A stretch of 64,000 nt of DNA. It comes from a virus. The notes below the pieces were generated by a model. It worked only from the letters and a program-made list of their open reading frames with translations, did no database searches and was not told the DNA's origin. Shown here piece after piece: positions 39,861 to 63,263 of this stretch. Position 1 is the first letter of the stretch; each line of letters opens with the position of its first letter. A program made the translations under genes and the position numbers. The stretch is taken from positions 32,001 to 96,000 of IMG/VR virus record IMGVR_UViG_3300027709_000056; one strand, 5' to 3'.

Positions 39861-40162
39861 AAAATTGTAGATACTATATAGGAACATTTCGTATGAAAGA
39901 TGATGAAAGTTCTGATATATGGCATGATACAATTATGACAGAACAAATGGGTGACATATTAAGTGATGCATTTCTTTATGGCGGGGAAGTAATGGAAGAA
40001 AGAAGTGTGCCTAGCGACTTTGATATGCTTCATTGTCATTTGTATGTAAGATTTAAAGATGAAAGAAAAGCTATATTGTTTATATTAAAATATCCGCAAG
40101 TTAGACGTTCAGAAAAAATTCAAAGAGACGATTATGCTAAAAACTTGAATTGGGTAGGCTAA
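39857..40162 (+). CDS. Hypothetical protein (101 aa)
   Basis: Overlap-coupled to both neighbours. Confidence 0.55.
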   Translation: MKNCRYYIGTFRMKDDESSDIWHDTIMTEQMGDILSDAFLYGGEVMEERSVPSDFDMLHCHLYVRFKDERKAILFILKYPQVRRSEKIQRDDYAKNLNWVG

Positions 40163-42738
40163 TGGAAAAAGAATTAGATAAAATTAAAAGAATATTACCT
40201 ATCACTGATGCAGAAATTAGTCCTACTTTTTGTTTAGCCAAATGGCATCATACTACTATCTATCTAGCAACAGGTGAAACGCATAGTTGTTATCATCCTG
40301 CTCCACACAAAATACCTTTAGAAGAACTTAAAGACAATCCAAGTGCTTTACATAATACTATAGAAAAGAAAGACCAACGTAATAAAATGCTATGTGGCGA
40401 AAAGCCAGATGGTTGTAGTTATTGTTGGAAAATTGAAGCTATGGGTAAAGACTATGTAAGTGATAGACATATTAAAACAGCAAGTATATACACACCAGAA
40501 CGAGTTGCAGAAATAAAAGAGAAAGGAAAAGACTTTAATGTTAATCCTGAATACATAGAAATTAGTTTTTCAAATGAATGTAATTTTAAGTGTGGATATT
40601 GTCACCCTAAAGCTAGTAGTAGGTACTGGAAAGAGATAGAAGACCATGGTCCTTATAGTAAATCAAGTACACATAGACAAGATATTGATTGGTTTAAAGT
40701 TTATCAAAATGAAGAAGAGAATCCATATGTAAAAGCATGGTGGGAATGGTGGCCCGAAGTTAGTAAAACATTAAACATTTTGCGTATTACTGGTGGTGAA
40801 CCTTTAATGCACAAAAGTCTTTGGGACTTATTCGAAAAACTAGAAGCAGATCCAAAGCCACATATTCAAATTGAAGTTAATAGTAATATGGGTGTTAAGC
40901 ATTCGTTAGTTGAGAAACTAACAAAAATAGTATTAAGACTTAAAGCAAAAAATTGTATTAAAAGTTTTAAATTATACACAAGTATTGATACGTGGGGACC
41001 TAAAGCTGAATATATTCGTACAGGATTAGATTTAGAATTGTGGGAAAAGAACTTAGATTACTTTTTAAGGAATACTCCTTTCTCTGTTATTTTTATGATT
41101 ACATTTAATATCTTTAGTGTTACAAGTTTTAATTTATTATTAGAAAAAATATTAGAATGGCGTTCTAGGTATAATGGAATTGTAGCTAATCAAGTAAGAT
41201 GGCAAAAAGTACAATTTGATACGCCTCATTTAAAAGAACCTAGTATATATGATATGAATATATTACCTAAAGATGAGTTTATGCCATATATGGAAAAGAA
41301 CTTACAATCTATGATTGAACATCAAGATGATAAAGATAGGAATAAATTTAGTTCATTAGAAGTAGAAAAGTTTAGACGTGTAGTTGACTATATGCGTACA
41401 ACACATTACACACCAGTCAAACTTAAACAAGCTCATAAAGACTTTTATAATTGGTTTACAGAATTTGATAAAAGAAAAAGCACTAATTTAGTTAAAACGT
41501 TTCCTGAATTCGAAGTATTTTATGATGATTGTTTTATGGCAACCATGGAAGGTAAAACTCTTTGTATGCTTCCGTGGGTTCATATGTATGTAGGTGCAGA
41601 TGGAAACGTTTTACCTTGTTGTATAGGTGATTATAAACAGCCTTTAGGTAGTACGCATAAAAATAGCATAAAAGAGATTTGGAATAGTCCGCAATATAAA
41701 AAATTACGTCTGCAAATGCTTAATAACGAGAAACCATCAGCCTGTAATCAATGCTGGAAACACGAAGAAGCAGGAGGTGAAAGTAGTCGTTATAATAAAA
41801 ATAAAATGTTTAAAGAAGATTTACCGTTAATAGAAAAAACTAATAGTGATGGTAGTTTAGATGAAATGAAACTACGTTATATGGATGTACGTTGGAGTAA
41901 TATTTGTAATTTTAAATGTAGAACTTGTAGTGCGTCATTTAGTTCTACTTGGGCTCAAGAAGATAATGAATGCGGTGATAAGAAAGATGTCTTTATTTTT
42001 GCTGGCGGCAAAGATAACGATTCGTTATACGAACAATTTAAACCACATTTTAAAGATGTAAAAGTTTTTTATTTTGCTGGCGGTGAACCGTTAGTTACTG
42101 ATAAGCATTATGATATTTTAGAACACTTAATTGAAACTAATAATACAGATGTTTCATTACAATACAATTCAAATCTTAGTAATTTGTTTTATAAGAAAAA
42201 ATGTGTTACAGAATTATGGAATAAATTTTCTGATGTTAAAGTAGCGGCAAGTTTAGATAGTTGGGGAGACAGAGCTGAATATATTCGTGAAGGAACAGAA
42301 TGGCCTGTAATAATGGACAATTTAAATCGTGTAAAAAAAGATTCACCACACGTAAATATGACGTTCAATAGTGTTATAAGTGTTTTTAATATTTTAACAA
42401 TTACAGATTTTTTAACTTATATGGAAAATAATGGCTTTAAAACTAATCATGGTGTATTATATAATCTTGTTCATCCAGCACATTATCATATAAATGTTTT
42501 ACCTGCTAATTTAAAACAACTAGCATATCAAAAGATTGTAGCTCATGCACAAACAGTCCATAATAAAGGAATGTCTATGCAATTACAAGGTGTGTTAGAT
42601 TATATTAATGATTCAAAATTCGATCAAATGGCACAAATTAATTTTATATCAACTACACTACGTTATGATAAAATAAGAAATAGATCTTTTAGTAAAACAT
42701 TTCCTGAACTTAAAGATGCATTCGGTGATCGTTATTAG
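40162..42738 (+). CDS. Tandem double radical SAM protein; each half has an N-terminal twitch/SPASM-like Cys domain
   Basis: Two CxxxCxxC motifs (CNFKCGYC, CNFKCRTC), two GGEP motifs, two N-terminal FC/LC..W.H...G....C domains. Start set to ATG 40162 (TAATG overlap). Confidence 0.9.
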   Translation: MEKELDKIKRILPITDAEISPTFCLAKWHHTTIYLATGETHSCYHPAPHKIPLEELKDNPSALHNTIEKKDQRNKMLCGEKPDGCSYCWKIEAMGKDYVSDRHIKTASIYTPERVAEIKEKGKDFNVNPEYIEISFSNECNFKCGYCHPKASSRYWKEIEDHGPYSKSSTHRQDIDWFKVYQNEEENPYVKAWWEWWPEVSKTLNILRITGGEPLMHKSLWDLFEKLEADPKPHIQIEVNSNMGVKHSLVEKLTKIVLRLKAKNCIKSFKLYTSIDTWGPKAEYIRTGLDLELWEKNLDYFLRNTPFSVIFMITFNIFSVTSFNLLLEKILEWRSRYNGIVANQVRWQKVQFDTPHLKEPSIYDMNILPKDEFMPYMEKNLQSMIEHQDDKDRNKFSSLEVEKFRRVVDYMRTTHYTPVKLKQAHKDFYNWFTEFDKRKSTNLVKTFPEFEVFYDDCFMATMEGKTLCMLPWVHMYVGADGNVLPCCIGDYKQPLGSTHKNSIKEIWNSPQYKKLRLQMLNNEKPSACNQCWKHEEAGGESSRYNKNKMFKEDLPLIEKTNSDGSLDEMKLRYMDVRWSNICNFKCRTCSASFSSTWAQEDNECGDKKDVFIFAGGKDNDSLYEQFKPHFKDVKVFYFAGGEPLVTDKHYDILEHLIETNNTDVSLQYNSNLSNLFYKKKCVTELWNKFSDVKVAASLDSWGDRAEYIREGTEWPVIMDNLNRVKKDSPHVNMTFNSVISVFNILTITDFLTYMENNGFKTNHGVLYNLVHPAHYHINVLPANLKQLAYQKIVAHAQTVHNKGMSMQLQGVLDYINDSKFDQMAQINFISTTLRYDKIRNRSFSKTFPELKDAFGDRY

Positions 42739-43654
42739 CAGGTTTACGTGTTAGTAGATCATGTCTCATCCTATTTAACCAGTCTACAGGTTGATCGTAA
42801 ATACTAAACTTCTTTTGCCCTCTAGAGATGTCATTCATATGCTTAATCCATTTATTTTGAACTTCTCCAACTGCTTTATCAGTACGATCACTCCAATCAT
42901 GTTTAAAAGTTCTTTTTAAGTAATCATAGTGTTCTAATGGATGTGGATGTCCGTCTTGAAAAACTTTATTAATTAATCTTCGATCAGACTCAAATTTTTG
43001 CATCCAGTTATTATTAAAAAGTACATCATAAAAACTAGGTTTTAAATGAGCCGTTGTATCTAGATACATTTGTTTAAATTGATCAAGTCTCGAATTACCA
43101 AATTTTTTAGGTCTGTCATCAATTTTCTGAGTAACGTCCCATTGGTTTGCAAATTCAATTAAGTTATTCATTTGTATGAAATGCCATTGTGCTTTATGTT
43201 TAAGCATTTCATGAGCACCTTTAATAAAAGCTAAATCTCTAACAATTGCTCCGTACTCACTAAAATACTTGTCTCTCCATTCTTCATCATATATATTTTG
43301 TGTATAAATATTTCCTGGAGTTACCCAAGTACCATACTTTTTTCCGTGCTTACTGTCGTGCGTTTCGCGACCCGGTTCAAAGAATCTATCTTCTCTACTA
43401 ACATTAGTCCATTGTACTATTATTAAATCATAGTGATTAAAATTATAAGCCGCGTCAGCCTGCATTAATGAATTGTAGATATAATGATTGCCAGCACCAG
43501 ATTTACCAAAGTTATAAAACTCAGCTTCATGAAATTCAGTACCTAAAATATTAGCCCATGTAGTCCACAAGTATTGTGTAAAGCTACAACCAAAGCAAAA
43601 TATTCTATTAAGTGGATTGTTTATTAATTTTGTAGCCATTATATTTTTTTTCAC
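42710..43654 (-). CDS. SGNH/GDSL hydrolase-fold protein
   Basis: FCFGCSF (block I), NFGKSGAGN (block II), DGHP (block V). The true start may be the ATG about 15 nt inside the GTG-initiated ORF. Confidence 0.6.
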   Translation of the reverse strand: MKKNIMATKLINNPLNRIFCFGCSFTQYLWTTWANILGTEFHEAEFYNFGKSGAGNHYIYNSLMQADAAYNFNHYDLIIVQWTNVSREDRFFEPGRETHDSKHGKKYGTWVTPGNIYTQNIYDEEWRDKYFSEYGAIVRDLAFIKGAHEMLKHKAQWHFIQMNNLIEFANQWDVTQKIDDRPKKFGNSRLDQFKQMYLDTTAHLKPSFYDVLFNNNWMQKFESDRRLINKVFQDGHPHPLEHYDYLKRTFKHDWSDRTDKAVGEVQNKWIKHMNDISRGQKKFSIYDQPVDWLNRMRHDLLTRKPANNDHRMHL

Positions 43655-43656
43655 TC

Positions 43657-43821
43657 CTAAAGTTTCCCACGCTTCAACATTTCTTTTGTTACTTTGTAGG
43701 GTATTTTTTCAATTTTGCCACCTTTAGCAAGAAATTCTTTCATCATACGATCACGTTCCTCTTGTGTTGTTCTTTTTTCAGGTTTAGTACTAGTGTATGC
43801 TCTGTTTATCTCAATGCCCAT
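43657..43821 (-). CDS. 54-aa SutA-like (RNA-polymerase-binding) protein, missed by the ORF track
   Basis: Manual translation: MGIEINRAYTSTKPEKRTTQEERDRMMKEFLAKGGKIEKIPYKVTKEMLKRGKL*. It fills the gap and overlaps the upstream stop; ERD...EFL..GGK...I resembles the SutA core (recalled from memory). Confidence 0.65.
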   Translation of the reverse strand: MGIEINRAYTSTKPEKRTTQEERDRMMKEFLAKGGKIEKIPYKVTKEMLKRGKL

Positions 43822-45079
43822 TTGCTATCTTTATTATTTTTTTTGCTAGGTTTAACATAGTTTCTTCAGTGTGCTTATTATTATACATAACTTTAAAATT
43901 GTATTTAAGTATATCTCGTTGTTTAAATTTCCATTCTTGGTGTGCACCTTTACTCATATTATCTAGCTCTTTTACTTTATCTTTAATTACCTCAAATAGT
44001 TTGCACCACCGTAGATATGTATCTTCTTCGCTGTCAAAACTGTAATCAAATGTATCTTCATATAATTTATACCCAAATTTTTCTAAGTTTTTGTTAATAT
44101 TTTGTTGTCCCCAAATAATAAAAGGTTGCATATGATATATAGCCCTAAATGTTTTTTCACTCCAAAACATACTAGTTTTATTCCAGTCTTCAACATACGT
44201 TTCATTTACTACCTGAAATAATGTAGTCCAATGTAAATGCGAATGTAAACTCATAGCATGATTAGTTGTAAAGTCTTCAGTATCTGCTATTAAGGGTAAT
44301 TCTTTATAAAACTTTTCTATTTGTTCTTCAGTTATATTAAATCCAGCTGGGAAAGTCTTTTTTAAATTATGTGCTTTTAAAAGTCCACCTTCAAATGCAT
44401 TATGGCTTACTACACCCTTTTCAAATATACCACTGTGAAAAAGCTCATAAGCACTCATTGTTCTATGAGGTCTGTTTACTCTACTAAGACTTAGATAGTA
44501 TTTTTCACCATAATAAAATCTTTTACTATGTTTACGTACCTCTGTATAGCGTTCGTCTATAAGTGTATCAACGTCAGTTCTAGTAGTATCAAGTTCATAA
44601 CGATTATTAACATTTTTTAATCCAAAAAGCATTTTTTCAAAATTATTAAAACAAGCAACATTAATAGATTCTGTTTCGTTATGTTTTTTGTTATATTTTT
44701 TTATGTTTTTAGTATCTAGCATATTTGAAGAAACAAAAATTATTTTTTTAGGACTAATATTATGTTTTTTACAGTTGTTATATAATATATCAAAAAACGG
44801 TAGATCATATAGAGTACTAAAGCCTTCAGTACTTGCATCAAAAAAGAAAAATGATTTTGGATCGTTACGTAATTGTTTAAGATTCTTTTTTCGCAGATAT
44901 TGAAATATATCAACACCGGCTCTCCATTGGGGATATTTTATTAGCACATGAAAAATGGTTATTGTAGGATCGTAGATATCATTCTCTTTAAATGCGTGTA
45001 ACAACTTTACTAAAGCAAGTGAAGTTTCTACTTGGCGTACATATACGTTTGGTTTAATGTAGTAATTTGCTGGAATCAT
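43811..45079 (-). CDS. Putative glycosyltransferase (GT10/exostosin-like C-terminal motif)
   Basis: LSLSRVNRPHR and FQVVNETY...FWSEKTFRAIYHMQPFIIWG resemble the GT10 F.LAFENS...YITEK....A....PIV.G motif. Confidence 0.45.
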   Translation of the reverse strand: MIPANYYIKPNVYVRQVETSLALVKLLHAFKENDIYDPTITIFHVLIKYPQWRAGVDIFQYLRKKNLKQLRNDPKSFFFFDASTEGFSTLYDLPFFDILYNNCKKHNISPKKIIFVSSNMLDTKNIKKYNKKHNETESINVACFNNFEKMLFGLKNVNNRYELDTTRTDVDTLIDERYTEVRKHSKRFYYGEKYYLSLSRVNRPHRTMSAYELFHSGIFEKGVVSHNAFEGGLLKAHNLKKTFPAGFNITEEQIEKFYKELPLIADTEDFTTNHAMSLHSHLHWTTLFQVVNETYVEDWNKTSMFWSEKTFRAIYHMQPFIIWGQQNINKNLEKFGYKLYEDTFDYSFDSEEDTYLRWCKLFEVIKDKVKELDNMSKGAHQEWKFKQRDILKYNFKVMYNNKHTEETMLNLAKKIIKIANGH

Positions 45080-45113: not shown

Positions 45114-45123
45114 TTAGCTGTAG

Positions 45124-45131
45124 TATTTATA
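45124..45131 (-). promoter_or_regulatory. T4-consensus late promoter TATAAATA
   Basis: Forward tatttata is the exact T4 late consensus on the minus strand, upstream of the 45079 start. Confidence 0.65.
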
Positions 45132-45160
45132 TACGCATATAATGATTTAAGGATAACTTG

Positions 45161-46333
45161 ATGAAGATAGGATTTATTGGTTTAGGAAAACTAGGCTTAC
45201 CATGTGCTGAAGTAGTTGCTGAAAAAGGCCATGATGTTACTGGTTATGATCCTGCAAATATAACAAGTGATTTAGTTAGTATTAAAGAAAAAATCAAAGA
45301 TGCAGTACAAGACAGGGATATTGTTTTTGTTGCTGTTCCAACGCCCCATCATCCAGATTATGACGGTAAAGCTCCTACGGCACACTTAGAACCTAAAGAT
45401 TTTAGTTACGATATTGTTGTTGATGTGTTAAGAGAAGCCAATGAGCATATGACTCAAGAACAGTTGCTAGTCCTTATTAGTACTGTTTTACCTGGTACTA
45501 CTCGCAAAGAATTTGCACCATTAGTTACAAATACTCGCTTTGTTTATAATCCATATTTTATTGCTATGGGAACAGTAGCTTGGGATATGGTAAATCCTGA
45601 AATGGTAATTGTAGGAACTGATACCGGAAAAATAAATGGTGATGCAGAACAGTTAGTAGAATTTTATAAAGGTATAATGGAAAACAAGCCACGGTATGAA
45701 GTATGCACGTGGGACGAATGTGAATGTATTAAAGTTTTTTACAATACATTTATTAGTATGAAAATTGGATTTGTAAATATGATCCAAGATGTTGCTGAAA
45801 AGCAAGGTAATATTAATGTTGATGTAGTCACTAACGCTCTTTCAAAAAGTAAAAATCGAATTATTAGTACCCGATATATGACAGCAGGAATGGGTGATGG
45901 TGGAGCCTGTCATCCAAGAGATAATATTGCATTACGGTATATGGCCAAAAAATTGGACTTGCAATATGATCTGTTTGATGCTATAATGAAAGCTAGAGAA
46001 GTACAGGCTAAAAACATGGCTAAGAAATTAGTCAGTTTAGCCATAAAAAATAACTTGCCAATATTATTAAATGGCATCAGTTATAAACCAGGAGTACCAT
46101 ATATAGATGGAAGTTATAGTTTGTTAGTTGGTCATTATTGTTCAGAAGTTGAATATCATTGTATGAGAGTTGATCCGTTAGTGTGTCCACAGAAAGGACC
46201 ATTTAGTGCAATTGTTTTATTATCACACCCTGAATTGTATTGCTTTTTAAATGACGATAGTATAGTTGTTGACCCATGGAGAAAATATAAATCTAGCAAA
46301 CATAAGGTTATCCATTATGGCAATACGAGATGA
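45161..46333 (+). CDS. UDP-glucose/GDP-mannose dehydrogenase family protein (full length, divergent)
   Basis: GFIGLGKLGLP, FVAVPTP, ISTVLPGTT, NPYF, KVFYNTFISMKI, DGGACHPRD, GISYKPG; AAGGA SD before ATG 45161. Confidence 0.9.
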   Translation: MKIGFIGLGKLGLPCAEVVAEKGHDVTGYDPANITSDLVSIKEKIKDAVQDRDIVFVAVPTPHHPDYDGKAPTAHLEPKDFSYDIVVDVLREANEHMTQEQLLVLISTVLPGTTRKEFAPLVTNTRFVYNPYFIAMGTVAWDMVNPEMVIVGTDTGKINGDAEQLVEFYKGIMENKPRYEVCTWDECECIKVFYNTFISMKIGFVNMIQDVAEKQGNINVDVVTNALSKSKNRIISTRYMTAGMGDGGACHPRDNIALRYMAKKLDLQYDLFDAIMKAREVQAKNMAKKLVSLAIKNNLPILLNGISYKPGVPYIDGSYSLLVGHYCSEVEYHCMRVDPLVCPQKGPFSAIVLLSHPELYCFLNDDSIVVDPWRKYKSSKHKVIHYGNTR

Positions 46334-56990: not shown

Positions 56991-57741
56991 TTTTCATTCC
57001 CCATTCTCGTTCTTGACACCAAAAACACTTGCCACAAGTAGGAACGTACTGTCCTTTTTTGTAATTTTTATAATCTAGGTCACCGAATATATCTGGGTAA
57101 TCAGTAGCATCACCCTCGCAACTTCTTGTTATATTAAGTAAGTCAGTAAGGTAATTTTTTTTAAATTGTTTAATAACCCAATCTTTTTTAGTTGCTATTA
57201 ATGGGTGACAAATTTTTGTCCCCATATGATCTTTTATAGCTTCAAGTGTAGGTTCTTTTCTATCAGCTAATGCCCCTTCAAGTTCTACATCTGGATTTTG
57301 ATTAACACCGGCAAACCAAGCATCTAGTTTATATTTGTGTACCAAATATTCGTTAAATGCACGTAAAATAATTTGATTACCAGATTTCATTTTCCCATCA
57401 ATCTCAATCGTTGGTCCTTTGCTACCCCATTCTAGTTCAGGTGGTATAAAATTTAAATGTCTTCGAAATTCAATCTTAGGGAAGCGTACGACAAACCAAT
57501 TAAACACTTCTTCAGCAATATGCTCTTGCCAAGGTCTTGTTTGCCAACAACGTATCTGTGTACTAATGTGTACTTTACAATTATCGTGTAAATTAGTACA
57601 AATTAAGTAGGCCATTAAGGCACTATCTGCACCGCCACTAAGACTGATTCCAATGTTTCGCCATTCAGTATTAATTGGAAAATACACGTTATCTATATGT
57701 ACGCCTGGTGTATCCGAGGTCTTATAAATATCATTATGCAT
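56974..57741 (-). CDS. QueC-like PP-loop ATP pyrophosphatase
   Basis: SLSGGADS, HPL, TRSC, CGKCFWCQER (QueC-type Zn motif). Confidence 0.75.
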   Translation of the reverse strand: MHNDIYKTSDTPGVHIDNVYFPINTEWRNIGISLSGGADSALMAYLICTNLHDNCKVHISTQIRCWQTRPWQEHIAEEVFNWFVVRFPKIEFRRHLNFIPPELEWGSKGPTIEIDGKMKSGNQIILRAFNEYLVHKYKLDAWFAGVNQNPDVELEGALADRKEPTLEAIKDHMGTKICHPLIATKKDWVIKQFKKNYLTDLLNITRSCEGDATDYPDIFGDLDYKNYKKGQYVPTCGKCFWCQEREWGMKNASAL

Positions 57742-57755: not shown

Positions 57756-57783
57756 TTGATGCCTAACTTGGTAAGATTTTAAT

Positions 57784-59199
57784 ATGACAAACCACAATTT
57801 CTGGAAAAATCACAATAACAAACAACTATCAGAATGGCAAAAGGACATTGAAGATAAATCAAATAGTCCTACTTTCTGTGTGTTACCTTGGATACACATG
57901 GCAACTAGACCAAATGGTGATATGCGATTGTGTTGTGGAGCGAATGCCAGCGGAGCAGGAGTAGACCCAACCATTGGTATAGTTAAAGATTCTACAGGAC
58001 AACACGCTAATTTTGGAAATCAAACACCAATGGAAGCGTGGAATAGTCAATATATGAAAGATGTAAGGAAAAATATGTTGGCTGGTAAAATATCTGCGAG
58101 TTGTCAAAAGTGTTTTCAAGAGGAAGCTAGAGGGATATCAAGCAAGAGAATATGGGAACATAATTACTGGCAAGACGAAAATATTAATATACAGGATTTA
58201 ATTAATGAGACTTTAGAAGACGGAACCGCTCCTGAAAGAATACATTATCTAGACCTAAGGCTAGGACATACTTGTAATTTAAAATGTATAATGTGTAGTC
58301 CGCATGATTCGAGTCAATGGGTTGGAGATTATTATAAGTTAAAAAAACTTACTACAGATAAAAATATACAAAGCCAATTACATTGGGTAAGAAAAGAGTT
58401 CAATAATCAATGGCATGAGAATCCTGAGTTTTGGGAAGAAATGTATAAGCAAATTCCTAACATTAAGCAAGTTTATTTTGCAGGGGGTGAGCCATTAATG
58501 ATTAGAGAACATAAAGAATTTATTAAGGAAATTATTAAGCAGGGTTACGAAAAGAATATTGTGTTGCGATATAATACAAATGGATTATTAATAGATGAAG
58601 AATTTATAAAATTATGGAGTCCCTTTAAAAGAGTACAAGTAGGTTTCAGTTTAGATGGAAACTTTCAAAGAAATCATTTCATTCGTTATCCTAGCGACTG
58701 GGAAATTGTTGATAATAATTTAGATTTACTTGATAATACGTCTGATAATATAGATGTAACTATTGCTACTTGTCTTAGCATTTTAAATATTAAACATCTT
58801 CCTGATTTTGTAAAGTGGAAAATTAATAAAAAATATAAAAAGATTAATACTAGAAAGAACAAGGAAGGATTAATTATAGGTGGAGGACTTGTTAATATCC
58901 ATTTAGTGTATATGCCTACATTCCTTGATATGAGAATATTACCTAAGGAACACAAAGAAGATGTAACAAAACGCTTTGAAGAACTTAAAACTTGGTTATG
59001 GGAAAACTATACACAAGATGATGCTTTTTGGAAATTAAATCCTTATGGTTGGAGAAGATACGAAGGTGTATTAGATTTTATGAATAGTGAAGATAAAACT
59101 GCGATGCTTCCTAGCTTTAAAGATTATATTAATAAGATGGATATAATTAGAGAAACTAATTTTAAAGAAGTTTTTCCTGAACTTGCTGATTTAGTCTAG
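57784..59199 (+). CDS. Radical SAM protein with N-terminal twitch/SPASM-like domain
   Basis: FCVLPWIH...GDMRLCC...CQKC; CNLKCIMC; FAGGEP; NTNG. Confidence 0.9.
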   Translation: MTNHNFWKNHNNKQLSEWQKDIEDKSNSPTFCVLPWIHMATRPNGDMRLCCGANASGAGVDPTIGIVKDSTGQHANFGNQTPMEAWNSQYMKDVRKNMLAGKISASCQKCFQEEARGISSKRIWEHNYWQDENINIQDLINETLEDGTAPERIHYLDLRLGHTCNLKCIMCSPHDSSQWVGDYYKLKKLTTDKNIQSQLHWVRKEFNNQWHENPEFWEEMYKQIPNIKQVYFAGGEPLMIREHKEFIKEIIKQGYEKNIVLRYNTNGLLIDEEFIKLWSPFKRVQVGFSLDGNFQRNHFIRYPSDWEIVDNNLDLLDNTSDNIDVTIATCLSILNIKHLPDFVKWKINKKYKKINTRKNKEGLIIGGGLVNIHLVYMPTFLDMRILPKEHKEDVTKRFEELKTWLWENYTQDDAFWKLNPYGWRRYEGVLDFMNSEDKTAMLPSFKDYINKMDIIRETNFKEVFPELADLV

Positions 59200-59757
59200 G
59201 TCTTCAAAAGTATTATTATCTTTATGGTATTTCTTAAAGTCTCTAGCCCAAATTTCTTTGTCTAATAACCAAACATTTTGTTGAGTATAAAGGTATTCAA
59301 AATCTTCTTTTAATAATGAAATGCCCTCAACTCCTCTACGCATAAGTTTATCAACTGCATGACTTCTACCTGCGCCATCTATGCTTTCTGGTCTATTTGT
59401 TGTGTGAATAAAATTACTAGGACCATGAAGTTTATCGATATACTTCATTTGTAGATAATAGTTTATTCCAGCGTTAAGTGAATTAAGTCTTAGATTACGA
59501 CTAGTTTTTTGATTAGCGTCAATTGTTGCACCCCTAAACCCACAACGCCAGTATGTTTTATTATCCATATAAAATTCATGAACACCACTAAACACTTTGA
59601 TACGATTATCTTCAATACCTCCAAAGAACTGTATATGTTCAAAGTAATCAAATTTTAATTTTTTAATTGATGTATTATTATCAAATCCTTTTTTTGCACA
59701 TTCTTCCATAAAAGAAGGTAGTAAAGGATCATCTTTATTAATTTGTTTCCAATGCAT
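59191..59757 (-). CDS. Hypothetical protein, possibly GNAT/acyltransferase-like
   Basis: 188 aa; alpha/beta pattern QFFGGIEDNRIKVFSGV...WRCGFRG loosely like GNAT strands; coupled to the ANL ligase. Confidence 0.3.
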   Translation of the reverse strand: MHWKQINKDDPLLPSFMEECAKKGFDNNTSIKKLKFDYFEHIQFFGGIEDNRIKVFSGVHEFYMDNKTYWRCGFRGATIDANQKTSRNLRLNSLNAGINYYLQMKYIDKLHGPSNFIHTTNRPESIDGAGRSHAVDKLMRRGVEGISLLKEDFEYLYTQQNVWLLDKEIWARDFKKYHKDNNTFEDLD

Positions 59758-60868
59758 TTCTAATCTTTTTATTCAGCGAGTTTCTTGGCACACTATCAAT
59801 CTTGCTATATTTAAGTGGAATGTTACACGGTGGTAGGTAGGGAACAAGCATTTCTTTAATTGCGTCTTTATCTGGATTACCTTTAGTATGCATTAATTCA
59901 ATATAGTCGCTTCCTGCTTTATTTTTAGGGACAGCCAGGCAATCTCCATAACCCATTTCCTCTAAATAATTTTCAATTAGTAATAGACTACATTGATAGC
60001 CATTTACTTTAACTACATCGTTTGATCTGCCTTTAAACTGTATTAAGCCATTCCCAACATATTGCTTTATTTCAAATAGATCAGCAGTAGCAACACCATT
60101 GTAGATTAATTCATCATTTCTAATTTTGCAATTTTTGTCAAGTTCTAAATAACAAGATGTTTCATCTAATTCAGTAGTTCTATGTCCTAGTACAGGACTA
60201 CCAATTTCTGTTGATCCATATATGTGATTAAAAACGTTGCACCCATTATCAAAAATGTATTTTGCGTGTCTTGGCAATAATTGACTAGCACCAGATGCCA
60301 CGATATCAAATTTGTCAAGTGGTAATTTAAGTTCAGCTATTCTAAATTGATCTATTAATCCAGGGATGAATATTGTAGCATTAACATCAGTTTGGAAATC
60401 ATCTTTAAGTGTTTGTCTATTTGATAATACAATTTTACAATCGTGTTTAACTATTGCTGGCAAAACAATATGCCAGAACCCACTAGTAAATGGTGGAATA
60501 AAATTTAACCAACTTGTATTACTGTTCCAATCAAGATGTTGTTCTGATTTTTTAATTATTTGTTTAAAGGCATTCTGATCAAACGAAACTAATTTAGGAG
60601 AACCTGTGGTTCCACTAGTGTGTAGAAAAACACAATCGTTTGCTGGTTGTTCCGCTAACTGTTTATCTAGTTCTTCCTTTTGCTTGGATGGAAGCATAGG
60701 TGCTCTAACTAATATGCGGCCGCCAACTTCCATCCAAGCAATATAAAGAGCTATGTGATCAAGATGATCAACAGATTCTATTATTACTATTTCATTTTTT
60801 AATTGCTGTTTGTATTTAGAAACAGTGACAGCATAATCTAAATAACTGCCATTGCGGAATATTTTCAC
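59738..60868 (-). CDS. Adenylate-forming (ANL) acyl-CoA synthetase / AMP ligase
   Basis: FLHTSGTTGSPK (P-loop), YGSTE, TADL, GRSNDVVKVNG. Confidence 0.9.
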   Translation of the reverse strand: MKIFRNGSYLDYAVTVSKYKQQLKNEIVIIESVDHLDHIALYIAWMEVGGRILVRAPMLPSKQKEELDKQLAEQPANDCVFLHTSGTTGSPKLVSFDQNAFKQIIKKSEQHLDWNSNTSWLNFIPPFTSGFWHIVLPAIVKHDCKIVLSNRQTLKDDFQTDVNATIFIPGLIDQFRIAELKLPLDKFDIVASGASQLLPRHAKYIFDNGCNVFNHIYGSTEIGSPVLGHRTTELDETSCYLELDKNCKIRNDELIYNGVATADLFEIKQYVGNGLIQFKGRSNDVVKVNGYQCSLLLIENYLEEMGYGDCLAVPKNKAGSDYIELMHTKGNPDKDAIKEMLVPYLPPCNIPLKYSKIDSVPRNSLNKKIRNALETN

Positions 60869-61509
60869 TAGAACCTCGTTATAAAGGCTACTGCTGTAAT
60901 TTCAGAATCATAATCACCTCGTTGCCATCCTCTGGTTACCATCATGCTTACCTTTGGTGTAATTTTATAACCAAGTCCGGCGGTAACTGTTTCTGTTTCC
61001 CAAACAATATCATCAGAATCTCTAAATCTATAATTTAGATCAGTAAAAAGTCTGTCAGTAAGTTTATACTGTGTTCCAACTTTTATTGTAAAATAATCAT
61101 CTGTGTTTTTGTCTGAGTTTTCATACTTTCTCCAACCCAAGCTATAGAATGCATACGGGGAAAAGTCTTTAATCCTCGTTGTATATCCAATACCAGCCAT
61201 CCACCTTGTTTCGTCATTAACAGCTGAAAGGTTCGGATAACCTTTCTGGTACATACCAGTTAATGTAAACCCGCTATCAAATCTATAAAATCCTTGGACT
61301 TGAAATAGGTCAACGCTTAATGTTTCGGAAATTGTTTCAACACCATAACCTGAACCTACAACTAACTTCTTTAAATTAAAAAGCGGTTCTTTTTTTACTG
61401 TTTCAGTATCAGTAGGTGGTGTTTGAGCATGGGCGGCAGTTAATCCAATAGGACCGGCTACCGCTGTCAATGATAGTATCATTGCTCCGATTAAGATAAT
61501 TTTTTTCAT
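60868..61509 (-). CDS. Outer-membrane beta-barrel protein with signal peptide
   Basis: MKKIILIGAMILSLTAVAG...AHA signal; alternating beta-strands with aromatic residues (GIGY, KVGTQYKL, AGLGYKI); C-terminal Phe. Start at ATG 61509 (ATGA overlap). Confidence 0.8.
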   Translation of the reverse strand: MKKIILIGAMILSLTAVAGPIGLTAAHAQTPPTDTETVKKEPLFNLKKLVVGSGYGVETISETLSVDLFQVQGFYRFDSGFTLTGMYQKGYPNLSAVNDETRWMAGIGYTTRIKDFSPYAFYSLGWRKYENSDKNTDDYFTIKVGTQYKLTDRLFTDLNYRFRDSDDIVWETETVTAGLGYKITPKVSMMVTRGWQRGDYDSEITAVAFITRF

Positions 61510-61913
61510 GTGGTCTTTCCCCAATTTATTAAGTTCCAAATTCTTTCATGTGTGTAATGTACAACGATGAACAGGATATTTGTTACAATAGTCCACTCTA
61601 ACGCATGAGCAGAACTAAGACCCATCATCATACCAATTACAAATAAAACAAACATGGACCATAGTCGCCAAGTAACCGTCTTAGCCGTTGTTCTAAAGTG
61701 TGTATCCTTGTTGTCTATTCTTTGCCATTTAACTCTATTCCATATTTTTTCTTGTACCCAGAACGATGCAAACCCAACAGTATATGATAGAATAACAAAT
61801 GTAATTCCAAATCCTGCTGAATAGTTCATTGCCAGTGCCGCGAGAAAAATGCTCACTGCAACGACTGTTCTGTATGAAAGAGTTTTTACTACTGTCCTAA
61901 GATTATTATCCAT
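61506..61913 (-). CDS. Membrane protein with two DUF2061-like repeats
   Basis: R..VKTLSYR...EKIWNRVKW and R..AKTVTWR...HERIWNLINW repeats; GGAGGA SD before ATG 61913. Confidence 0.75.
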   Translation of the reverse strand: MDNNLRTVVKTLSYRTVVAVSIFLAALAMNYSAGFGITFVILSYTVGFASFWVQEKIWNRVKWQRIDNKDTHFRTTAKTVTWRLWSMFVLFVIGMMMGLSSAHALEWTIVTNILFIVVHYTHERIWNLINWGKTT

Positions 61914-61960
61914 TATGTCCTCCAATTAAGATCTATGAGTTTCATAGTACAGTTACTATA

Positions 61961-61966: not shown

Positions 61967-61989
61967 TTGTTCTGCAAAACCGGGGGGTA

Positions 61990-62466
61990 TTATTGTGGCA
62001 TTCCAGGCGGAGTGAATTTATCCCCAAATGATGATTTTAAATCACTATGTAATTTTTCTATTATTTCTTGGGGACTGTATATGCCTACATTATCCCAATC
62101 TACGATCTGTATATTATTTCCATCAATAAGAATATTGCTTAATTGCCAATCACCGTGGGCGTAAGGAGATGTATGATTAATATGATTAATACAGAAATTA
62201 TAAATTTTATCTATAAATTGTTCAGTAATCGGAAATGTATTTGCTGGTATTCCCGGTATAATTTTATAATCTATATATAAGCTCTCTGTAGTAACACCGT
62301 GAGTAATAACAAATCCAGGCATAAGTTTTTCTAAAATATCTAAATGTTCTTCAAGAGCCGCTTCATCTGGGTTATGTTCTGGTTTACATTGCCAAGTCTT
62401 TCTATAGAAATCTGGGAATTTCCAGACTTGCCGTGAGTTCTCTTTGTTATCTTTGATTAAGTCCAT
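61990..62466 (-). CDS. APH/choline/RIO-like phosphotransferase (small)
   Basis: YAHGDWQLSNILID...IVDWD catalytic motifs. Confidence 0.75.
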   Translation of the reverse strand: MDLIKDNKENSRQVWKFPDFYRKTWQCKPEHNPDEAALEEHLDILEKLMPGFVITHGVTTESLYIDYKIIPGIPANTFPITEQFIDKIYNFCINHINHTSPYAHGDWQLSNILIDGNNIQIVDWDNVGIYSPQEIIEKLHSDLKSSFGDKFTPPGMPQ

Positions 62467-63263
62467 ACGTCAAAACTCTCTTCCCCATAAACGCAACCGT
62501 TAATGTTGCAGTTTTTACAAGGAGATTTTCCAGACCTTAGTCCACTTGCTAATTTATTTCTATAGTCCATTATTTCATCACCAAGCCATATCTCCTTTAT
62601 CGAAGTTTTATGTATGTTACCAAGTATCCCTTTTCTAGCCCAATCCTCAGAGCATACTAACGCATCACCATTCCAGTCAATAAACATTTTGTAAAAGGGC
62701 AAGTAACAAGGCTTTGTAATATTTTCTAATTTTTTTCCAAGTATATTATTTGTTCTATCAACCAATGTTAATTCAAATCTTTCAGGATAACAATGCCTAG
62801 GCATTATTTCAATATTTGTATCTCCACGCATTTCTAATAGTTCTTTTGTTATATCTTTATCATACATACTAACCATTATGTGTGTACATCCTGCATCAGC
62901 AAAATTCTTTATCTTATTAGCAGTAAGAAAGTCACCGTTAGTGTTTATGTCAATCCACTTGGCATCAGTTTGAGCGATAATTTCTATTTGTCTTGCTAGT
63001 TTTTTATGTAACAACGGTTCGCCAAATCCTACAAAGCCAACCCTACCATTAAATTTAATATCCTTAAGATCATCAGCAAGTTTTTGTGTAGTGCTTTCTG
63101 ATATAACCCAGTTCTTATTTGTATATATGTCTGGATTGCTTCTTGGACAGAAGTCACAAAATCTGTTGCATATATCAACAGGATTAATCTGTATGCTTCT
63201 TAAAGAAGAAAGTTTATCAGTTGCACCGGATGATTGCTGGGTTCGTAAGTTATGTAGGTTCAT
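62457..63263 (-). CDS. Radical SAM/SPASM protein
   Basis: CNRFCDFC, GFGEPL, NTNG, C-terminal CYLPF...DWNGDALVC...LGNI...IW...CKNC. Confidence 0.9.
   Translation of the reverse strand: MNLHNLRTQQSSGATDKLSSLRSIQINPVDICNRFCDFCPRSNPDIYTNKNWVISESTTQKLADDLKDIKFNGRVGFVGFGEPLLHKKLARQIEIIAQTDAKWIDINTNGDFLTANKIKNFADAGCTHIMVSMYDKDITKELLEMRGDTNIEIMPRHCYPERFELTLVDRTNNILGKKLENITKPCYLPFYKMFIDWNGDALVCSEDWARKGILGNIHKTSIKEIWLGDEIMDYRNKLASGLRSGKSPCKNCNINGCVYGEESFDVWT

What the first reader, a model, noticed from the sequence alone, without database searches (positions are those of the whole stretch)
40162..63263. Candidate new system: phage-encoded radical SAM biosynthetic island (8 genes, 9 domains) interleaved with sugar-, amine-, acyl- and phospho-transfer enzymes
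Seen: nine CxxxCxxC domains in about 23 kb, in three architectures: N-terminal twitch-like (40162 x2, 55278, 57784), C-terminal W.C..G Cys-rich (47841, 48794, 54392) and SPASM-like (51206, 62457). They are mixed with GTs, UDP-sugar dehydrogenases, SGNH proteins, an MTase, two PLP aminotransferases, kinases, an ANL ligase and a QueC-like enzyme. Established: twitch radical SAM enzymes such as BtrN oxidise aminocyclitols in pathways with PLP aminotransferases, and SPASM enzymes modify peptides and proteins. Inference: a late-expressed assembly line making unusual amino/acyl/methyl sugars or protein modifications for the virion or host surface. I know of no characterised phage pathway like it.
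Basis: partly seen in the sequence, partly recalled or inferred. Interest (0 to 1): 0.88.

Follow-up and report, generated by a model that had tools for sequence, protein, structure and literature searches.

The report
Phage eight-gene radical-SAM tailoring module
An uncultured marine giant phage carries nine iron-sulfur "radical SAM" enzyme domains beside its tail-fibre genes; six of them, plus two helper enzymes, form a fixed eight-gene set that recurs in hundreds of phage contigs and most likely builds or edits an unusual sugar-like compound whose chemistry nobody has tested.

Summary
The span 40150-63263 holds nine CxxxCxxC radical SAM domains in eight ORFs, all above Pfam's cut-off. They are the only PF04055 matches in the 199.8-kb contig. 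There are three paralogue classes, all of SPASM/twitch type. Four domains belong to NCBIfam NF033640 (N_Twi_rSAM), which has no member of known function that I found.

New here: six of the enzymes (A, B, D, E, F, H), a Rossmann methyltransferase-like protein (C) and a QueC-like PP-loop ATPase (G) form a fixed module. In 80 viral contigs anchored on G, 68-79 carry each partner, usually as a single copy. 435 viral loci encode a relative of G. No deposited phage genome does.

Around this core the window adds two nucleotide-sugar dehydrogenases, two PLP aminotransferases and an ANL ligase (firm). The SGNH-, kinase- and glycosyltransferase-like proteins are motif-level leads only.

The genes share an ATAAATA upstream motif with the fibre genes. 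No precursor peptide was seen, and no known cofactor enzyme matches.

Best reading (about 0.5): a cytoplasmic pathway tailoring a sugar- or nucleoside-like substrate. Product and target are unknown.

The same kind of island has been noted in this scan in at least 74 other genomes. Two papers mention it in passing.

The parts
35679..37362 (+). Two paralogous proteins of about 280 aa (35679-36533, 36526-37362) with a DxD-like 'VLDTDMLV' motif. Glycosyltransferase (GT-A/GT8-like) lead only.
   Evidence: Paralogy E 1.7e-9. No Pfam or NCBIfam family. hhalign against E. coli WaaJ/WaaO aligns only the DxD stretch, E 0.15.
37347..38132 (+). Truncated nucleotide-sugar dehydrogenase (261 aa; no C-terminal UDP-binding domain).
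   Evidence: PF00984 E 1.4e-16, PF03721 E 1.3e-6. TIGR03026 104.7 bits, below cut-off.
38961..39860 (+). 299-aa paralogue of the 226-aa protein at 47177. Conserved 'SY-EPNA ... VDGD' N-terminus. GT-A-like lead.
   Evidence: 33% identity to 47177-47857, E 4e-25. In 13 of 80 G-anchored loci. Family of 1,635 cluster representatives, often in multi-domain repeats. No relative by sequence in the PDB.
40150..42738 (+). 862-aa fusion of two complete N-terminal-twitch radical SAM units (N_Twi_rSAM x2).
   Evidence: NF033640 700.6 bits, two stretches. 313.9 and 399.1 bits separately. CxxxCxxC at residues 144 and 586. Best cultured relative: Ralstonia phage RsoM2USA gp202, 35%.
42710..43654 (-). 314-aa protein with an 'FGCSF ... 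GKSGAGN' N-terminus. SGNH-like lead.
   Evidence: No family hit. Pairwise E 0.001 to the 'FGCSY' family found in 34 of 80 related loci.
43811..45079 (-). 422-aa protein of unknown function, with TATAAATA 52 nt upstream.
   Evidence: No family hit. Motif position.
45158..46333 (+). Nucleotide-sugar (UDP-glucose/GDP-mannose type) dehydrogenase, divergent.
   Evidence: PF03721 E 1.3e-20, PF00984 E 1.3e-18. TIGR03026 177.4 bits against cut-off 189.8. Homologues in 7 of 80 G-anchored loci.
46330..47184 (+). 284-aa protein starting with an 'IIGDSNG' block. SGNH/GDSL-like lead.
   Evidence: Motif read from the translation. No HMM hit. In 4 of 80 loci.
47177..47857 (+). 226-aa accessory protein of the module. 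GT-A-like lead.
   Evidence: In 46 of 80 G-anchored loci. Model pLDDT 63.8. Only weak GT-A-type fold rows (HddC, PBCV-1 A64R, GtrB; E 0.13-0.3). Atlas nearest named cluster GT2, score 0.87.
47814..48803 (+). Core gene A: radical SAM with a C-terminal twitch-like Cys domain.
   Evidence: PF04055 E 3.9e-11. Class alignment A8. In 68 of 80 G-anchored loci.
48794..49798 (+). Core gene B: radical SAM of the same class as A and E.
   Evidence: PF04055 E 5.9e-10. 26% identity to A over 315 aa. In 76 of 80 loci.
49795..50412 (+). Core gene C: Rossmann, methyltransferase-like protein with conserved GGW.GV, D.D and N..CEH motifs.
   Evidence: Alignment A2. Spermine_synth E 0.0017, below cut-off. In 75 of 80 loci. 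4,555 relatives without any Pfam family. Homologues in RsoM2USA and Pelagibacter phage Mosig.
50409..51218 (+). 269-aa protein. Weak SGNH/GDSL lead.
   Evidence: NF047474 E 0.0018, far below cut-off. In 4 of 80 loci.
51206..52198 (+). Core gene D: radical SAM with a C-terminal SPASM domain.
   Evidence: PF04055 E 3.4e-7, PF13186 E 4.2e-5. In 70 of 80 loci.
52314..53284 (-). Two proteins of unknown function (84 aa and 241 aa).
   Evidence: No family hits. Conserved only in L004.
53311..54414 (+). Class-III PLP aminotransferase.
   Evidence: PF00202 E 1.1e-44. No NCBIfam equivalog reached. In 11 of 80 loci.
54392..55294 (-). Core gene E: radical SAM of the A/B/E class.
   Evidence: PF04055 E 1e-14. 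Alignment A8. In 79 of 80 loci.
55278..56990 (-). Core gene F: N_Twi_rSAM with an extra N-terminal extension of about 150 aa. It overlaps G by 17 nt.
   Evidence: NF033640 321.7 bits. Relatives are 420-450 aa. In 79 of 80 loci.
56974..57741 (-). Core gene G: PP-loop ATPase, QueC-like, with SGGADS and a C-terminal C...C..C..C motif.
   Evidence: Alignment A1. phrog_1550 E 2.8e-4. Atlas viral clusters carry PF06508 on 21-64% of members. PF06508 itself gives no match. 435 viral loci encode relatives. None among 50,697 deposited phage records.
57784..59199 (+). Core gene H: N_Twi_rSAM.
   Evidence: NF033640 398.1 bits. Model pLDDT 92.5. 3,584 relatives at E<=1e-10. In 78 of 80 loci.
59191..59757 (-). 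188-aa protein of unknown function, co-conserved with the ANL ligase.
   Evidence: 76% identity in L003-L005. No family hit.
59738..60868 (-). Short (376 aa) ANL-superfamily adenylating enzyme.
   Evidence: PF00501 E 8.7e-11. Only sub-threshold NCBIfam hits.
60868..61925 (-). Outer-membrane beta-barrel protein with a signal-like N-terminus (60868-61539), and a DUF2061 membrane protein (61506-61925).
   Evidence: PF13505 E 4.9e-9. PF09834 E 7e-8. Hydrophobic segments.
61990..62466 (-). 158-aa APH-like kinase fragment (lead).
   Evidence: PF01636 E 1.5e-4, 22.0 bits against cut-off 23.2.
62457..63263 (-). Ninth radical SAM domain: short SPASM-type enzyme (accessory, not part of the core).
   Evidence: PF13186 E 7.9e-13, PF04055 E 1e-11. 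In 0 of 80 G-anchored loci.
63266..64000 (-). HisC/CobD-like class-I/II PLP enzyme. It runs to window 64051, is 261 aa, and lacks about the first third of the fold.
   Evidence: PF00155 E 1.5e-16. TIGR01141 79.7 and TIGR01140 67.5 bits, both below cut-off. Full ORF seen in L001.

Best explanation
The island is this phage's enlarged copy of a conserved eight-gene pathway module. The module has six different SPASM/twitch radical SAM enzymes (A, B, E with a C-terminal twitch-like domain; D with SPASM; F, H with an N-terminal twitch domain). It also has a Rossmann methyltransferase-like protein (C) and a QueC-like PP-loop ATPase (G). It lies among the tail-fibre genes and is probably transcribed with them. 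I think it acts in the host cytoplasm on a small carbohydrate- or nucleoside-type substrate, such as a nucleotide sugar or a glycan being built from one, rather than on a ribosomal peptide. Proposed logic; every step below is inferred and none is shown. (1) The nucleotide-sugar dehydrogenases make a uronic acid. (2) G adenylates a carboxylate and converts it to an amide or nitrile, as QueC does. (3) Twitch-type radical SAM enzymes abstract H atoms from sugar carbons to oxidise, epimerise, deoxygenate, decarboxylate or join them. (4) The PLP aminotransferases aminate the resulting keto positions. (5) C methylates. (6) The ANL ligase acylates. (7) The GT-A-like proteins attach the product. What is shown: domain identities, the fixed co-occurrence and one-copy pattern of the eight genes, their position, and the shared upstream motif. 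The product and its target (virion fibres, host envelope, or a free metabolite) are unknown.
For: Fixed module: in 80 viral loci anchored on G, F is present in 79, E 79, H 78, B 76, C 75, D 70 and A 68, mostly one copy each. The single locus without partners ends about 90 bp after G. The H-anchored set gives the same picture. Genes overlap or abut: F/G overlap by 17 nt here, and A-C-D-H-B and E-F-G are contiguous in L019-L022. This leaves no room for a precursor-peptide gene inside the cassette. Sugar leaning: there are two nucleotide-sugar dehydrogenases in the island. Relatives add SDR-like, kinase-like, cupin/2OG-oxygenase, short epimerase-like and SGNH-like paralogues. Bacterial arrays of 6-10 N_Twi paralogues (Bdellovibrionales and Legionellales MAGs) lie beside carbamoyltransferase (2), GT2 (2), NeuB, phosphomannomutase and PfkB kinase genes. 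T4-like contigs put the cassette next to a CMP-sugar-type cytidylyltransferase. Only the porin-like protein, DUF2061 and one 90-aa ORF are clearly membrane or exported proteins (one further hydrophobic stretch inside the 862-aa enzyme), and no Wzx/Wzy-like polytopic protein is present. Not a cofactor pathway: every equivalog model (MoaA, PqqE, NirJ, AhbD, QueE, viperin and others) scores far below its cut-off. Position and regulation: the island follows a 4,906-aa virion structural protein and a Collar-domain fibre protein, and is followed by an Mtd_N fibre-like protein. 7 of the 10 ATAAATA motifs in the window lie within 80 nt upstream of gene starts. These include fibre genes (10089, 28292, 32859) and island operon starts (43811-45079, 45158, 56974-57741, 57784). 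The genome also encodes an IscA-type Fe-S carrier.
Against: No member of N_Twi_rSAM, of the A/B/E class, or of the C and G families that I could find has a tested function. The fold of H matches protein-, peptide-, sugar- and nucleotide-acting radical SAM enzymes equally well: anSME Z 13.3, CteB 12.8, BlsE 12.8, DesII 11.8, MoaA 11.6, viperin 11.5. No glycosyltransferase is statistically established. The firm sugar enzymes are accessory: the dehydrogenase is within 10 kb of the module in only 7 of 80 loci. The commonest neighbour, in 67 of 80 loci, is an Asp/Asn-hydroxylase-type cupin, a family that also acts on proteins. Single-copy bacterial homologues have no conserved neighbourhood. Most SPASM enzymes of known function modify peptides or proteins (my knowledge of the family). 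There are no expression data.
Confidence: 0.5

Rival explanations
1. The module post-translationally modifies a phage protein, for example a tail fibre or another virion protein. The SPASM/twitch enzymes would make cross-links, epimerise residues or oxidise side chains. The Asp/Asn-hydroxylase-type cupin would hydroxylate residues. G would activate a side-chain carboxylate, as lasso-peptide cyclases do. C would methylate.
For: The best fold matches of H include anSME, CteB, SkfB, SuiB, ChlB and EpeE, all enzymes that act on peptides or proteins. An Asp_Arg_Hydrox-type protein accompanies the module in 67 of 80 loci and lies just past the island here. An Mtd_N fibre-like protein is a neighbour in 17 of 80 loci. 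The island shares the ATAAATA motif with fibre genes.
Against: No conserved small ORF lies inside or beside the tightly packed cassette. No leader-recognition, protease or exporter genes were seen. The accessory set (nucleotide-sugar dehydrogenases, SDR-like, kinase-like, aminotransferases, ANL ligase) is typical of small-molecule pathways. Bacterial arrays sit by carbohydrate genes. The fold matches cover only the shared radical SAM core and are tied with sugar- and nucleotide-acting enzymes.
Confidence: 0.17
2. The module makes or edits a nucleobase or nucleoside, such as a 7-deazapurine derivative, for DNA hypermodification or as a free nucleoside. G would act as the phage's QueC-type carboxylate-to-nitrile enzyme.
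For: G has the PP-loop and a C-terminal Cys motif that aligns with the CxxCxxC of E. coli QueC. Its nearest viral clusters carry PF06508 on 21-64% of members. The contig encodes FolE, a QueE-like protein and QueD, but no PF06508 QueC. Of 20 other module-bearing contigs, 12 (4 of 4, then 8 of 16) carry FolE, in most of them 5-18 kb from the module. The 4 that were also searched for PF06508, one of them a 100%-complete 357.6-kb genome, lack a canonical QueC.
Against: FolE, QueD and QueE are never within 10 kb of the module in 100 loci. The FolE linkage is shared synteny within one roughly 350-kb phage lineage, not independent evidence. G sits inside the radical SAM cassette, not with FolE/QueE. 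PF06508 does not match G at all, and the hhalign probability against QueC is 4%. No TGT/DpdA match was found in the contig. Phages with FolE/QueD/QueE and no QueC are known to make other 7-deazaguanines without it (Cellulophaga phage phiST; PMC10516641).
Confidence: 0.12
3. This is the same chemistry as the best explanation, but the target is the host envelope. The product would alter lipopolysaccharide or outer-membrane lipids during infection to block superinfection. This was proposed for the glycosyltransferase-rich 'host recognition cluster' of pelagimyophages.
For: Zaragoza-Solas 2020 describe this kind of island (fibres, glycosyltransferases, UDP-glucose dehydrogenase, radical SAM cassettes) and propose O-chain modification (PMC7029224). 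The island encodes a signal-bearing outer-membrane beta-barrel protein and a DUF2061 membrane protein. Vibrio phage K566 has four N_Twi paralogues next to a PagP-like gene. LpxO-type lipid A hydroxylases belong to the Asp_Arg_Hydrox family (my knowledge).
Against: No lipid-carrier glycosyltransferase, flippase, polymerase or ligase is present, and nearly all island proteins are soluble. Likely late co-regulation with fibre genes leaves little time for envelope remodelling to pay off. The outer-membrane protein block is accessory, seen only in L003-L005.
Confidence: 0.15

Closest known systems
NCBIfam NF033640, N_Twi_rSAM (twitch domain-containing radical SAM protein)
   Same: Four domains here score 314-399 bits, above the 170-bit cut-off. 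They have the family's N-terminal Cys-rich twitch domain ahead of the CxxxCxxC core.
   Different: The family is only a catalogue entry, and I found no member with a tested function. Here two units are fused into one 862-aa protein, and F has an extra 150-aa N-terminus.
BtrN (butirosin) and BlsE (blasticidin S): twitch-type radical SAM enzymes acting on an aminocyclitol and on a nucleoside glucuronate
   Same: Same enzyme class (radical SAM core plus one auxiliary-cluster domain). They work in pathways with aminotransferases and sugar oxidation. BlsE is the only sequence-level PDB hit of H (E 0.004) and a top-tier fold match (Z 12.8).
   Different: Their twitch domain is C-terminal. Identity is about 15-20%. 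BlsE is tied with anSME and CteB in the fold search, and BtrN is not among the 50 listed matches. Each works as the single radical SAM enzyme of its pathway, not as one of six.
'Host recognition cluster' of pelagimyophages and cyanomyophages (Zaragoza-Solas et al. 2020, PMC7029224), and the T4-like environmental genome with 12 radical SAM genes (Nishimura et al. 2017, PMC5332604)
   Same: A hypervariable island within the structural region. [quoted passage not shown] Fe-S carrier genes occur in the same genomes.
   Different: Those papers only mention the radical SAM genes. They do not resolve a fixed eight-gene module or propose chemistry. This phage is a PA5oct/Atu_ph07-like jumbo phage of about 350 kb, not a 140-180-kb T4-like phage.
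QueC (7-cyano-7-deazaguanine synthase) and QueE in 7-deazaguanine synthesis
   Same: G has the SGGxDS PP-loop and a C-terminal Cys cluster. It is translationally coupled to a radical SAM enzyme, as QueC follows QueE in its pathway.
   Different: PF06508 does not match G. G is never next to FolE, QueD or QueE. Its partners are six SPASM/twitch enzymes, not a QueE.
Glucuronamide branch of Campylobacter jejuni capsule synthesis (UDP-glucose dehydrogenase, HisC/CobD-like PLP enzymes, ATP-dependent amide ligase). Recalled from the literature, not checked here.
   Same: The right-hand block here combines nucleotide-sugar dehydrogenases, a HisC/CobD-like PLP enzyme, an adenylating ligase and a kinase-like protein.
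   Different: There is no sequence-level link. The ligase here is ANL-type, not ATP-grasp. Several enzymes are truncated. No radical SAM enzymes act in that pathway.

Membership tests
Radical SAM superfamily (PF04055) | CxxxCxxC cluster motif and an HMM score above the gathering threshold | tested here: met
   Nine motifs. Nine PF04055 matches of 30.6-53 bits or more in the six-frame search, all over the cut-off.
NF033640 N_Twi_rSAM | Whole-protein score of at least 170 bits, with the twitch domain N-terminal to the radical SAM core | tested here: met
   399.1, 397.9, 322.7 and 313.9 bits for the four units. C32, C107 and C110 of H are invariant and C51 nearly invariant in 52 sequences, ahead of C164/C168/C171. 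The other five domains score under 55 bits and are not members.
SPASM/twitch subgroup (PF13186 / TIGR04085) | Auxiliary Cys-rich Fe-S domain recognised by the SPASM model | tested here: met
   PF13186 is above its 21.5-bit cut-off for 40150 (58.4), 51206 (24.2), 55278 (41.6), 57784 (23.5) and 62457 (48.9). This row covers six domains in those five proteins; A, B and E are listed separately.
SPASM/twitch subgroup, proteins A, B and E | Auxiliary Cys-rich domain recognised by the model | tested here: inconclusive
   No PF13186 hit. Alignment A8 shows an invariant C-terminal C..G ... C ... C ... C pattern with a nearly invariant Trp before it, which resembles the start of a SPASM/twitch domain.
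BtrN-type sugar/cyclitol dehydrogenase | Specific similarity to BtrN beyond the common radical SAM core | tested here: inconclusive
   BtrN is not among the 50 listed fold matches of H. The matches listed are tied within about 2 Z units across substrate classes.
Known cofactor or nucleotide radical SAM enzymes (MoaA, PqqE, NirJ, AhbC/D, QueE, NrdG, viperin, tungsten-cofactor maturase) | Score above the NCBIfam equivalog cut-off | tested here: not met
   Best scores are 20-63 bits against cut-offs of 131-650 bits for all eight proteins.
RiPP maturase system | A precursor-peptide gene next to the maturase, plus leader recognition, protease or export genes | tested here: not met
   Cassette genes overlap or abut. 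No universally conserved ORF of at least 60 aa other than enzymes was found in 80 loci. ORFs under 60 aa were not searched systematically.
QueC (PF06508) | HMM match; PP-loop SGGxDS; C-terminal Zn-binding Cys cluster | tested here: inconclusive
   The PP-loop and four conserved C-terminal Cys are present. PF06508 gives no match at E<=1. phrog_1550 'QueC-like' E 2.8e-4. hhalign against E. coli QueC: probability 4%, E 0.01.
Nucleotide-sugar dehydrogenase (TIGR03026; PF03721/PF00984) | N-terminal NAD domain and central domain above Pfam cut-offs; subfamily score of at least 189.8 bits | tested here: inconclusive
   For 45158-46333 the Pfam domains are met (74.2 and 67.3 bits), but TIGR03026 scores 177.4 bits, just under the cut-off. 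37347-38132 is truncated (104.7 bits).
GT-A glycosyltransferases (GT2/GT8) | HMM or fold match to a GT-A family; DxD motif | tested here: inconclusive
   DxD-like motifs are present. There is no Pfam or NCBIfam hit. Fold rows are E 0.13 or worse on a low-confidence model. The PDB profile search was empty. hhalign against WaaJ/WaaO gave E 0.15.
Class I SAM-dependent methyltransferase (protein C) | HMM match to a methyltransferase family; glycine-rich motif I and an acidic residue after strand 2 | tested here: inconclusive
   Motifs GGW.GV and D.D are conserved. The only hit is Spermine_synth, 18.4 bits, below the 22.9 cut-off. The PDB profile search gave nothing relevant.

The most novel reading that the evidence does not exclude
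The eight-gene set is a self-contained pathway in which six different radical SAM enzymes act in turn on one scaffold. It would make a single defined compound or modification of a class not yet described, for example a radical-built carbocyclic or C-C-linked sugar or nucleoside. This would be made by one of the most widespread enzyme sets in marine giant phages. The N-terminal-twitch family would then represent new radical SAM chemistry.
Probability: 0.25. Interest if true: 0.9.

Novelty: new variant of a known kind. Interest (0 to 1): 0.66.

Why it matters
Radical SAM enzymes carry out some of the hardest reactions in biology, yet most of the superfamily has no known function. Here six different ones are held together with two helpers. 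The set recurs in hundreds of IMG/VR phage contigs, and single components have thousands of relatives, mostly in ocean metagenomes. Such a fixed, one-copy-each set points to one defined product rather than a loose toolbox, which makes it a tractable target for heterologous expression. If the product decorates fibres or the host surface, it bears on host recognition and superinfection in abundant marine phages. If it is a nucleoside or a DNA base, it adds to phage anti-restriction chemistry. Either way it would give the first function to NCBIfam N_Twi_rSAM. That family also forms arrays of 6-10 paralogues in Bdellovibrionales and Legionellales genomes.

Tried and rejected
- T4 late promoter: the full consensus TATAAATA is depleted (4 found, 18.9 expected). 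Only the shorter ATAAATA shows placement upstream of genes.
- Known cofactor pathways: all equivalog models score far below their cut-offs.
- PDB profile searches for G, C and the GT-A-like family gave nothing meaningful.
- PHROGs and NCBIfam scans of ten unassigned island proteins gave only the QueC-like, PP-loop and weak GDSL leads.
- The 226-aa protein folded poorly (pLDDT 63.8), and its fold search gave no row at E<=0.001.
- hhalign gave no significant result for the 280-aa paralogues against E. coli GT8 enzymes, or for the 226-aa family against those paralogues.
- The fold search of the good H model could not separate protein-, peptide-, sugar- and nucleotide-type relatives.
- Neighbourhoods of single-copy bacterial N_Twi genes had no conserved context: PhyH in 4 of 82 ORFs, everything else in 3 or fewer.
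- FolE, QueD and QueE were sought next to the module in 100 loci and not found.
- G was sought in 50,697 deposited phage genomes and not found.
- Weak pairwise similarities (188-aa protein to a 185-aa family, E 0.006; 314-aa protein to the 'FGCSY' family, E 0.001) are kept as leads only.
- No complex prediction was run. Binding between module proteins is not claimed.

Full report
**What the window is.** The window is bases 32001-96000 of a 199,810-bp IMG/VR viral contig. CheckV estimates it at 56% complete, so the genome is about 350 kb. G+C is about 32%.
- It encodes gp46/gp47-type recombination nucleases. The best deposited relatives are Pseudomonas phage PA5oct (49.7%), Atu_ph07 and Sinorhizobium phage Phosso.
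- Upstream of the finding lie a DUF2345 hub-like protein, a 4,906-aa protein homologous to virion structural proteins of PA5oct and Atu_ph07, and a Collar-domain fibre protein.
- Just past the window end lie a cupin of the Asp/Asn-hydroxylase type and an Mtd_N fibre-like protein.
- The island is therefore embedded in the fibre region of a marine jumbo myovirus.

- Eight ORFs contain nine CxxxCxxC motifs.
- All nine domains pass Pfam's radical SAM threshold.
- A six-frame search of the whole contig finds these nine PF04055 matches and no others.
- Class 1 is four N-terminal-twitch units: two fused in the 862-aa protein at 40150-42738, plus F (55278-56990) and H (57784-59199). All four pass the cut-off of NCBIfam NF033640 at 314-399 bits.
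- Class 2 is three enzymes of about 300-330 aa: A (47814), B (48794) and E (54392). They share an invariant C-terminal C..G...C...C...C motif preceded by a nearly invariant Trp.
- Class 3 is two SPASM enzymes: D (51206) and the protein at 62457.
- None reaches the cut-off of any characterised equivalog such as MoaA, PqqE, NirJ, AhbD, QueE or viperin.

**Partner enzymes: firm and not firm.**
- Firm: a nucleotide-sugar dehydrogenase (45158-46333) and a truncated second one (37347-38132); a class-III aminotransferase (53311-54414); a HisC/CobD-like PLP enzyme (63266-64051, only 261 aa); an AMP-binding ligase (59738-60868); an outer-membrane beta-barrel protein; and a DUF2061 membrane protein.
- Leads only: the methyltransferase-like C (conserved Rossmann motifs, sub-threshold Spermine_synth hit); the QueC-like G; SGNH-like proteins (GDS or GCS motifs); and an APH-like fragment.
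- Glycosyltransferases are not established. Two families have DxD-type motifs: the 226-aa and 299-aa paralogues, and the two 280-aa paralogues.
- HMMs, a profile search against PDB sequences, hhalign against E. coli GT8 enzymes and a fold search on a low-confidence model all stayed non-significant.

**The main new result: a fixed eight-gene module.**
- Loci found with H showed the same set of neighbours in shuffled order.
- I then anchored on the non-radical-SAM gene G. 435 viral loci encode a relative of G.
- Among the best 80, F occurs within 10 kb in 79, E in 79, H in 78, B in 76, C in 75, D in 70 and A in 68, nearly always as one copy each.
- The only locus without partners ends about 90 bp after G.
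- In T4-like contigs of about 173 kb the eight genes are contiguous and overlapping.
- Single components are very abundant. H has 3,584 relatives at E<=1e-10 and C has 4,555, mostly from ocean metagenomes.
- G has no homologue in 50,697 deposited phage genomes. C has distant ones in RsoM2USA and Pelagibacter phage Mosig.
- This window splits the module into two blocks (47177-52198 and 54392-59199). It adds the double N_Twi fusion, a ninth SPASM enzyme and the amine/acyl block at 59191-64051, which is shared only with L003-L005.

**What accompanies the module elsewhere.** Clustering all ORFs of the 80 loci gave the following.
- A cupin of the Asp/Asn-hydroxylase type in 67 loci. Its homologue here lies at about window 65568-66056.
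- Further cupin paralogues in 63 loci and kinase-like paralogues in 65.
- SDR-like proteins in 43, an 'FGCSY' SGNH-like family in 34, and the 226-aa GT-A-like family in 46.
- The Mtd_N fibre-like protein in 17.
- In an earlier sample of ten H-anchored loci, an alternative oxidase and a short epimerase-like protein each occurred in 5.
- The SDR-, kinase- and cupin-like labels for these extra families come from motifs read by eye, with Pfam support only for the Asp_Arg_Hydrox cupin.

**Bacterial relatives of the N_Twi family.**
- They are mostly in Bdellovibrionales and Legionellales MAGs. There they form tandem arrays of 6-10 paralogues.
- Genes beside those arrays include two carbamoyltransferases, two GT2, NeuB, a phosphomannomutase and a PfkB kinase.
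- Single-copy homologues in other bacteria have no conserved context.

**Structure.**
- A 52-sequence alignment gave a confident model of H (pLDDT 92.5).
- Fold searches match only the radical SAM core, residues about 154-438.
- The matches are anSME Z 13.3, CteB 12.8, BlsE 12.8, SkfB 12.1, DesII 11.8, MoaA 11.6 and viperin 11.5.
- These are tied, so the fold does not say whether the substrate is a protein, a peptide, a sugar or a nucleotide.

**Regulation.**
- The complete T4 late consensus is depleted in the window.
- ATAAATA occurs ten times on both strands. Seven of these lie within 80 nt upstream of a gene start. Such upstream stretches make up about 3% of the sequence.
- The genes concerned include fibre and structural genes (10089, 28292, 32859) and island operon starts (43811-45079, 45158, 56974-57741, 57784).
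- This supports co-regulation with structural genes.

**Interpretation.**
- One orthologue each of six different radical SAM enzymes plus C and G, kept together across hundreds of contigs, argues for one multi-step pathway with a defined product.
- I favour a carbohydrate- or nucleoside-type small substrate, at about 0.5. The reasons are:
  - there is no room or candidate for a precursor peptide;
  - the accessory enzymes are of small-molecule type;
  - nucleotide-sugar dehydrogenases are present;
  - bacterial arrays sit among carbohydrate genes;
  - nearly all proteins are soluble.
- A uronic-acid theme is plausible but inferred. A dehydrogenase would make the acid, the QueC-like ATPase or the ANL ligase would activate the carboxylate, and PLP enzymes would supply amines.

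**Rivals that remain open.**
- Modification of a virion protein, about 0.17. It rests on protein- and peptide-type fold neighbours, the ubiquitous hydroxylase-type cupin and fibre adjacency.
- A nucleobase or 7-deazapurine role, about 0.12. The contig has FolE, a QueE-like gene and QueD but no canonical QueC or TGT. Of 20 other module-bearing contigs, 12 carry FolE; 4 of the 20 were also searched for a canonical QueC and none has one.
  - Against it: that linkage is shared synteny within one lineage, and these genes are never adjacent to the module.
  - Also against it: phages lacking QueC are known to make other 7-deazaguanines (PMC10516641).
- The target of the product (virion, host envelope or free metabolite) is unresolved.

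**Novelty.**
- Radical SAM genes in this genome region have been mentioned but not analysed. Examples are a T4-like environmental genome with 12 such genes (PMC5332604) and 'cassettes related to radical SAM proteins' in the pelagimyophage host recognition cluster (PMC7029224).
- This scan has flagged similar arrays in at least 74 other genomes, and follow-ups reached the same 'glycan-tailoring, chemistry untested' reading.
- This report adds five things:
  - the G-anchored proof of a fixed eight-gene core with one copy of each enzyme;
  - the finding that the glycosyltransferase calls are not yet established;
  - the upstream-motif evidence;
  - the open QueC-like/7-deazapurine question;
  - the cultured phages that could be used for tests, namely KVP40-like Vibrio phage K566 with four N_Twi paralogues, and RsoM2USA.

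Noticed in passing
G000:C1:107462-109030 (L001:12463-14030), C1:180544-180915: The contig encodes FolE (158 bits), an adjacent QueE-like radical SAM protein that PF04055 misses (so it is a tenth radical SAM enzyme), and QueD. There is no PF06508 QueC or PF01702 TGT match anywhere. FolE plus QueE-like lie 5-18 kb from the module in most related contigs that have FolE. The 4 of those contigs checked for QueC have no canonical one.
   Followed up: partly
G000:C1:176961-177260: An IscA/HesB-type A-type Fe-S carrier gene (59.8 bits). This fits a phage that must load at least 18 Fe-S clusters onto its radical SAM set. Nishimura 2017 noted the same pairing.
   Followed up: no
window 37347-38132, 59738-60868, 61990-62466, 63266-64051: Several island enzymes are markedly short for their families: nucleotide-sugar dehydrogenase 261 aa, ANL ligase 376 aa, APH-like 158 aa, class-I/II aminotransferase 261 aa. 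They may be half-size subunits, decayed genes, or parts of split enzymes. The 198-aa ORF upstream of the aminotransferase has no family hit.
   Followed up: partly
window, both strands; e.g. 45124-45131(-), 57723-57730(+): ATAAATA occurs 10 times and 7 of these are within 80 nt upstream of gene starts. The full T4 late consensus TATAAATA is four-fold depleted (4 against 18.9 expected), and two of its four copies sit at island operon starts.
   Followed up: partly
window 55278-56990 (-), residues 1-150: F carries an N-terminal extension of about 150 aa that its relatives (420-450 aa) lack. It has no family hit.
   Followed up: no
proteins P0246, P0335, P0276 and others: The domain of the 226-aa and 299-aa proteins (1,635 cluster representatives) often occurs as tandem repeats within single proteins of up to 2,164 aa. 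One 1,735-aa protein has 16 matched stretches.
   Followed up: no
L025, L029, L049, L071, L028 (Bdellovibrionales and Legionellales MAG contigs): Tandem arrays of 6-10 N_Twi_rSAM paralogues in bacterial genomes, one of them a closed 1.89-Mb chromosome. L026 and L066 also carry homologues of A, D and E, and L066 carries one of C.
   Followed up: partly
L017:11381-11995, and four more loci among the ten H-anchored loci sampled: An alternative oxidase / PTOX gene (PF01786, E 2e-82) sits inside the radical SAM cassette in some relatives. This is odd company for oxygen-sensitive enzymes.
   Followed up: no
L098 (Vibrio phage K566, OZ196521.1: 161548-168284): A cultured KVP40-like vibriophage has four N_Twi-like paralogues in a row, about 3 kb from a PagP-like lipid A acyltransferase gene and near nicotinamide phosphoribosyltransferase.
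   Followed up: partly
L001:6919-9417 (window about 69918-72416): A DUF2201 metallopeptidase/VWA protein paired with a MoxR-type AAA ATPase, just past the fibre-like gene.
   Followed up: no
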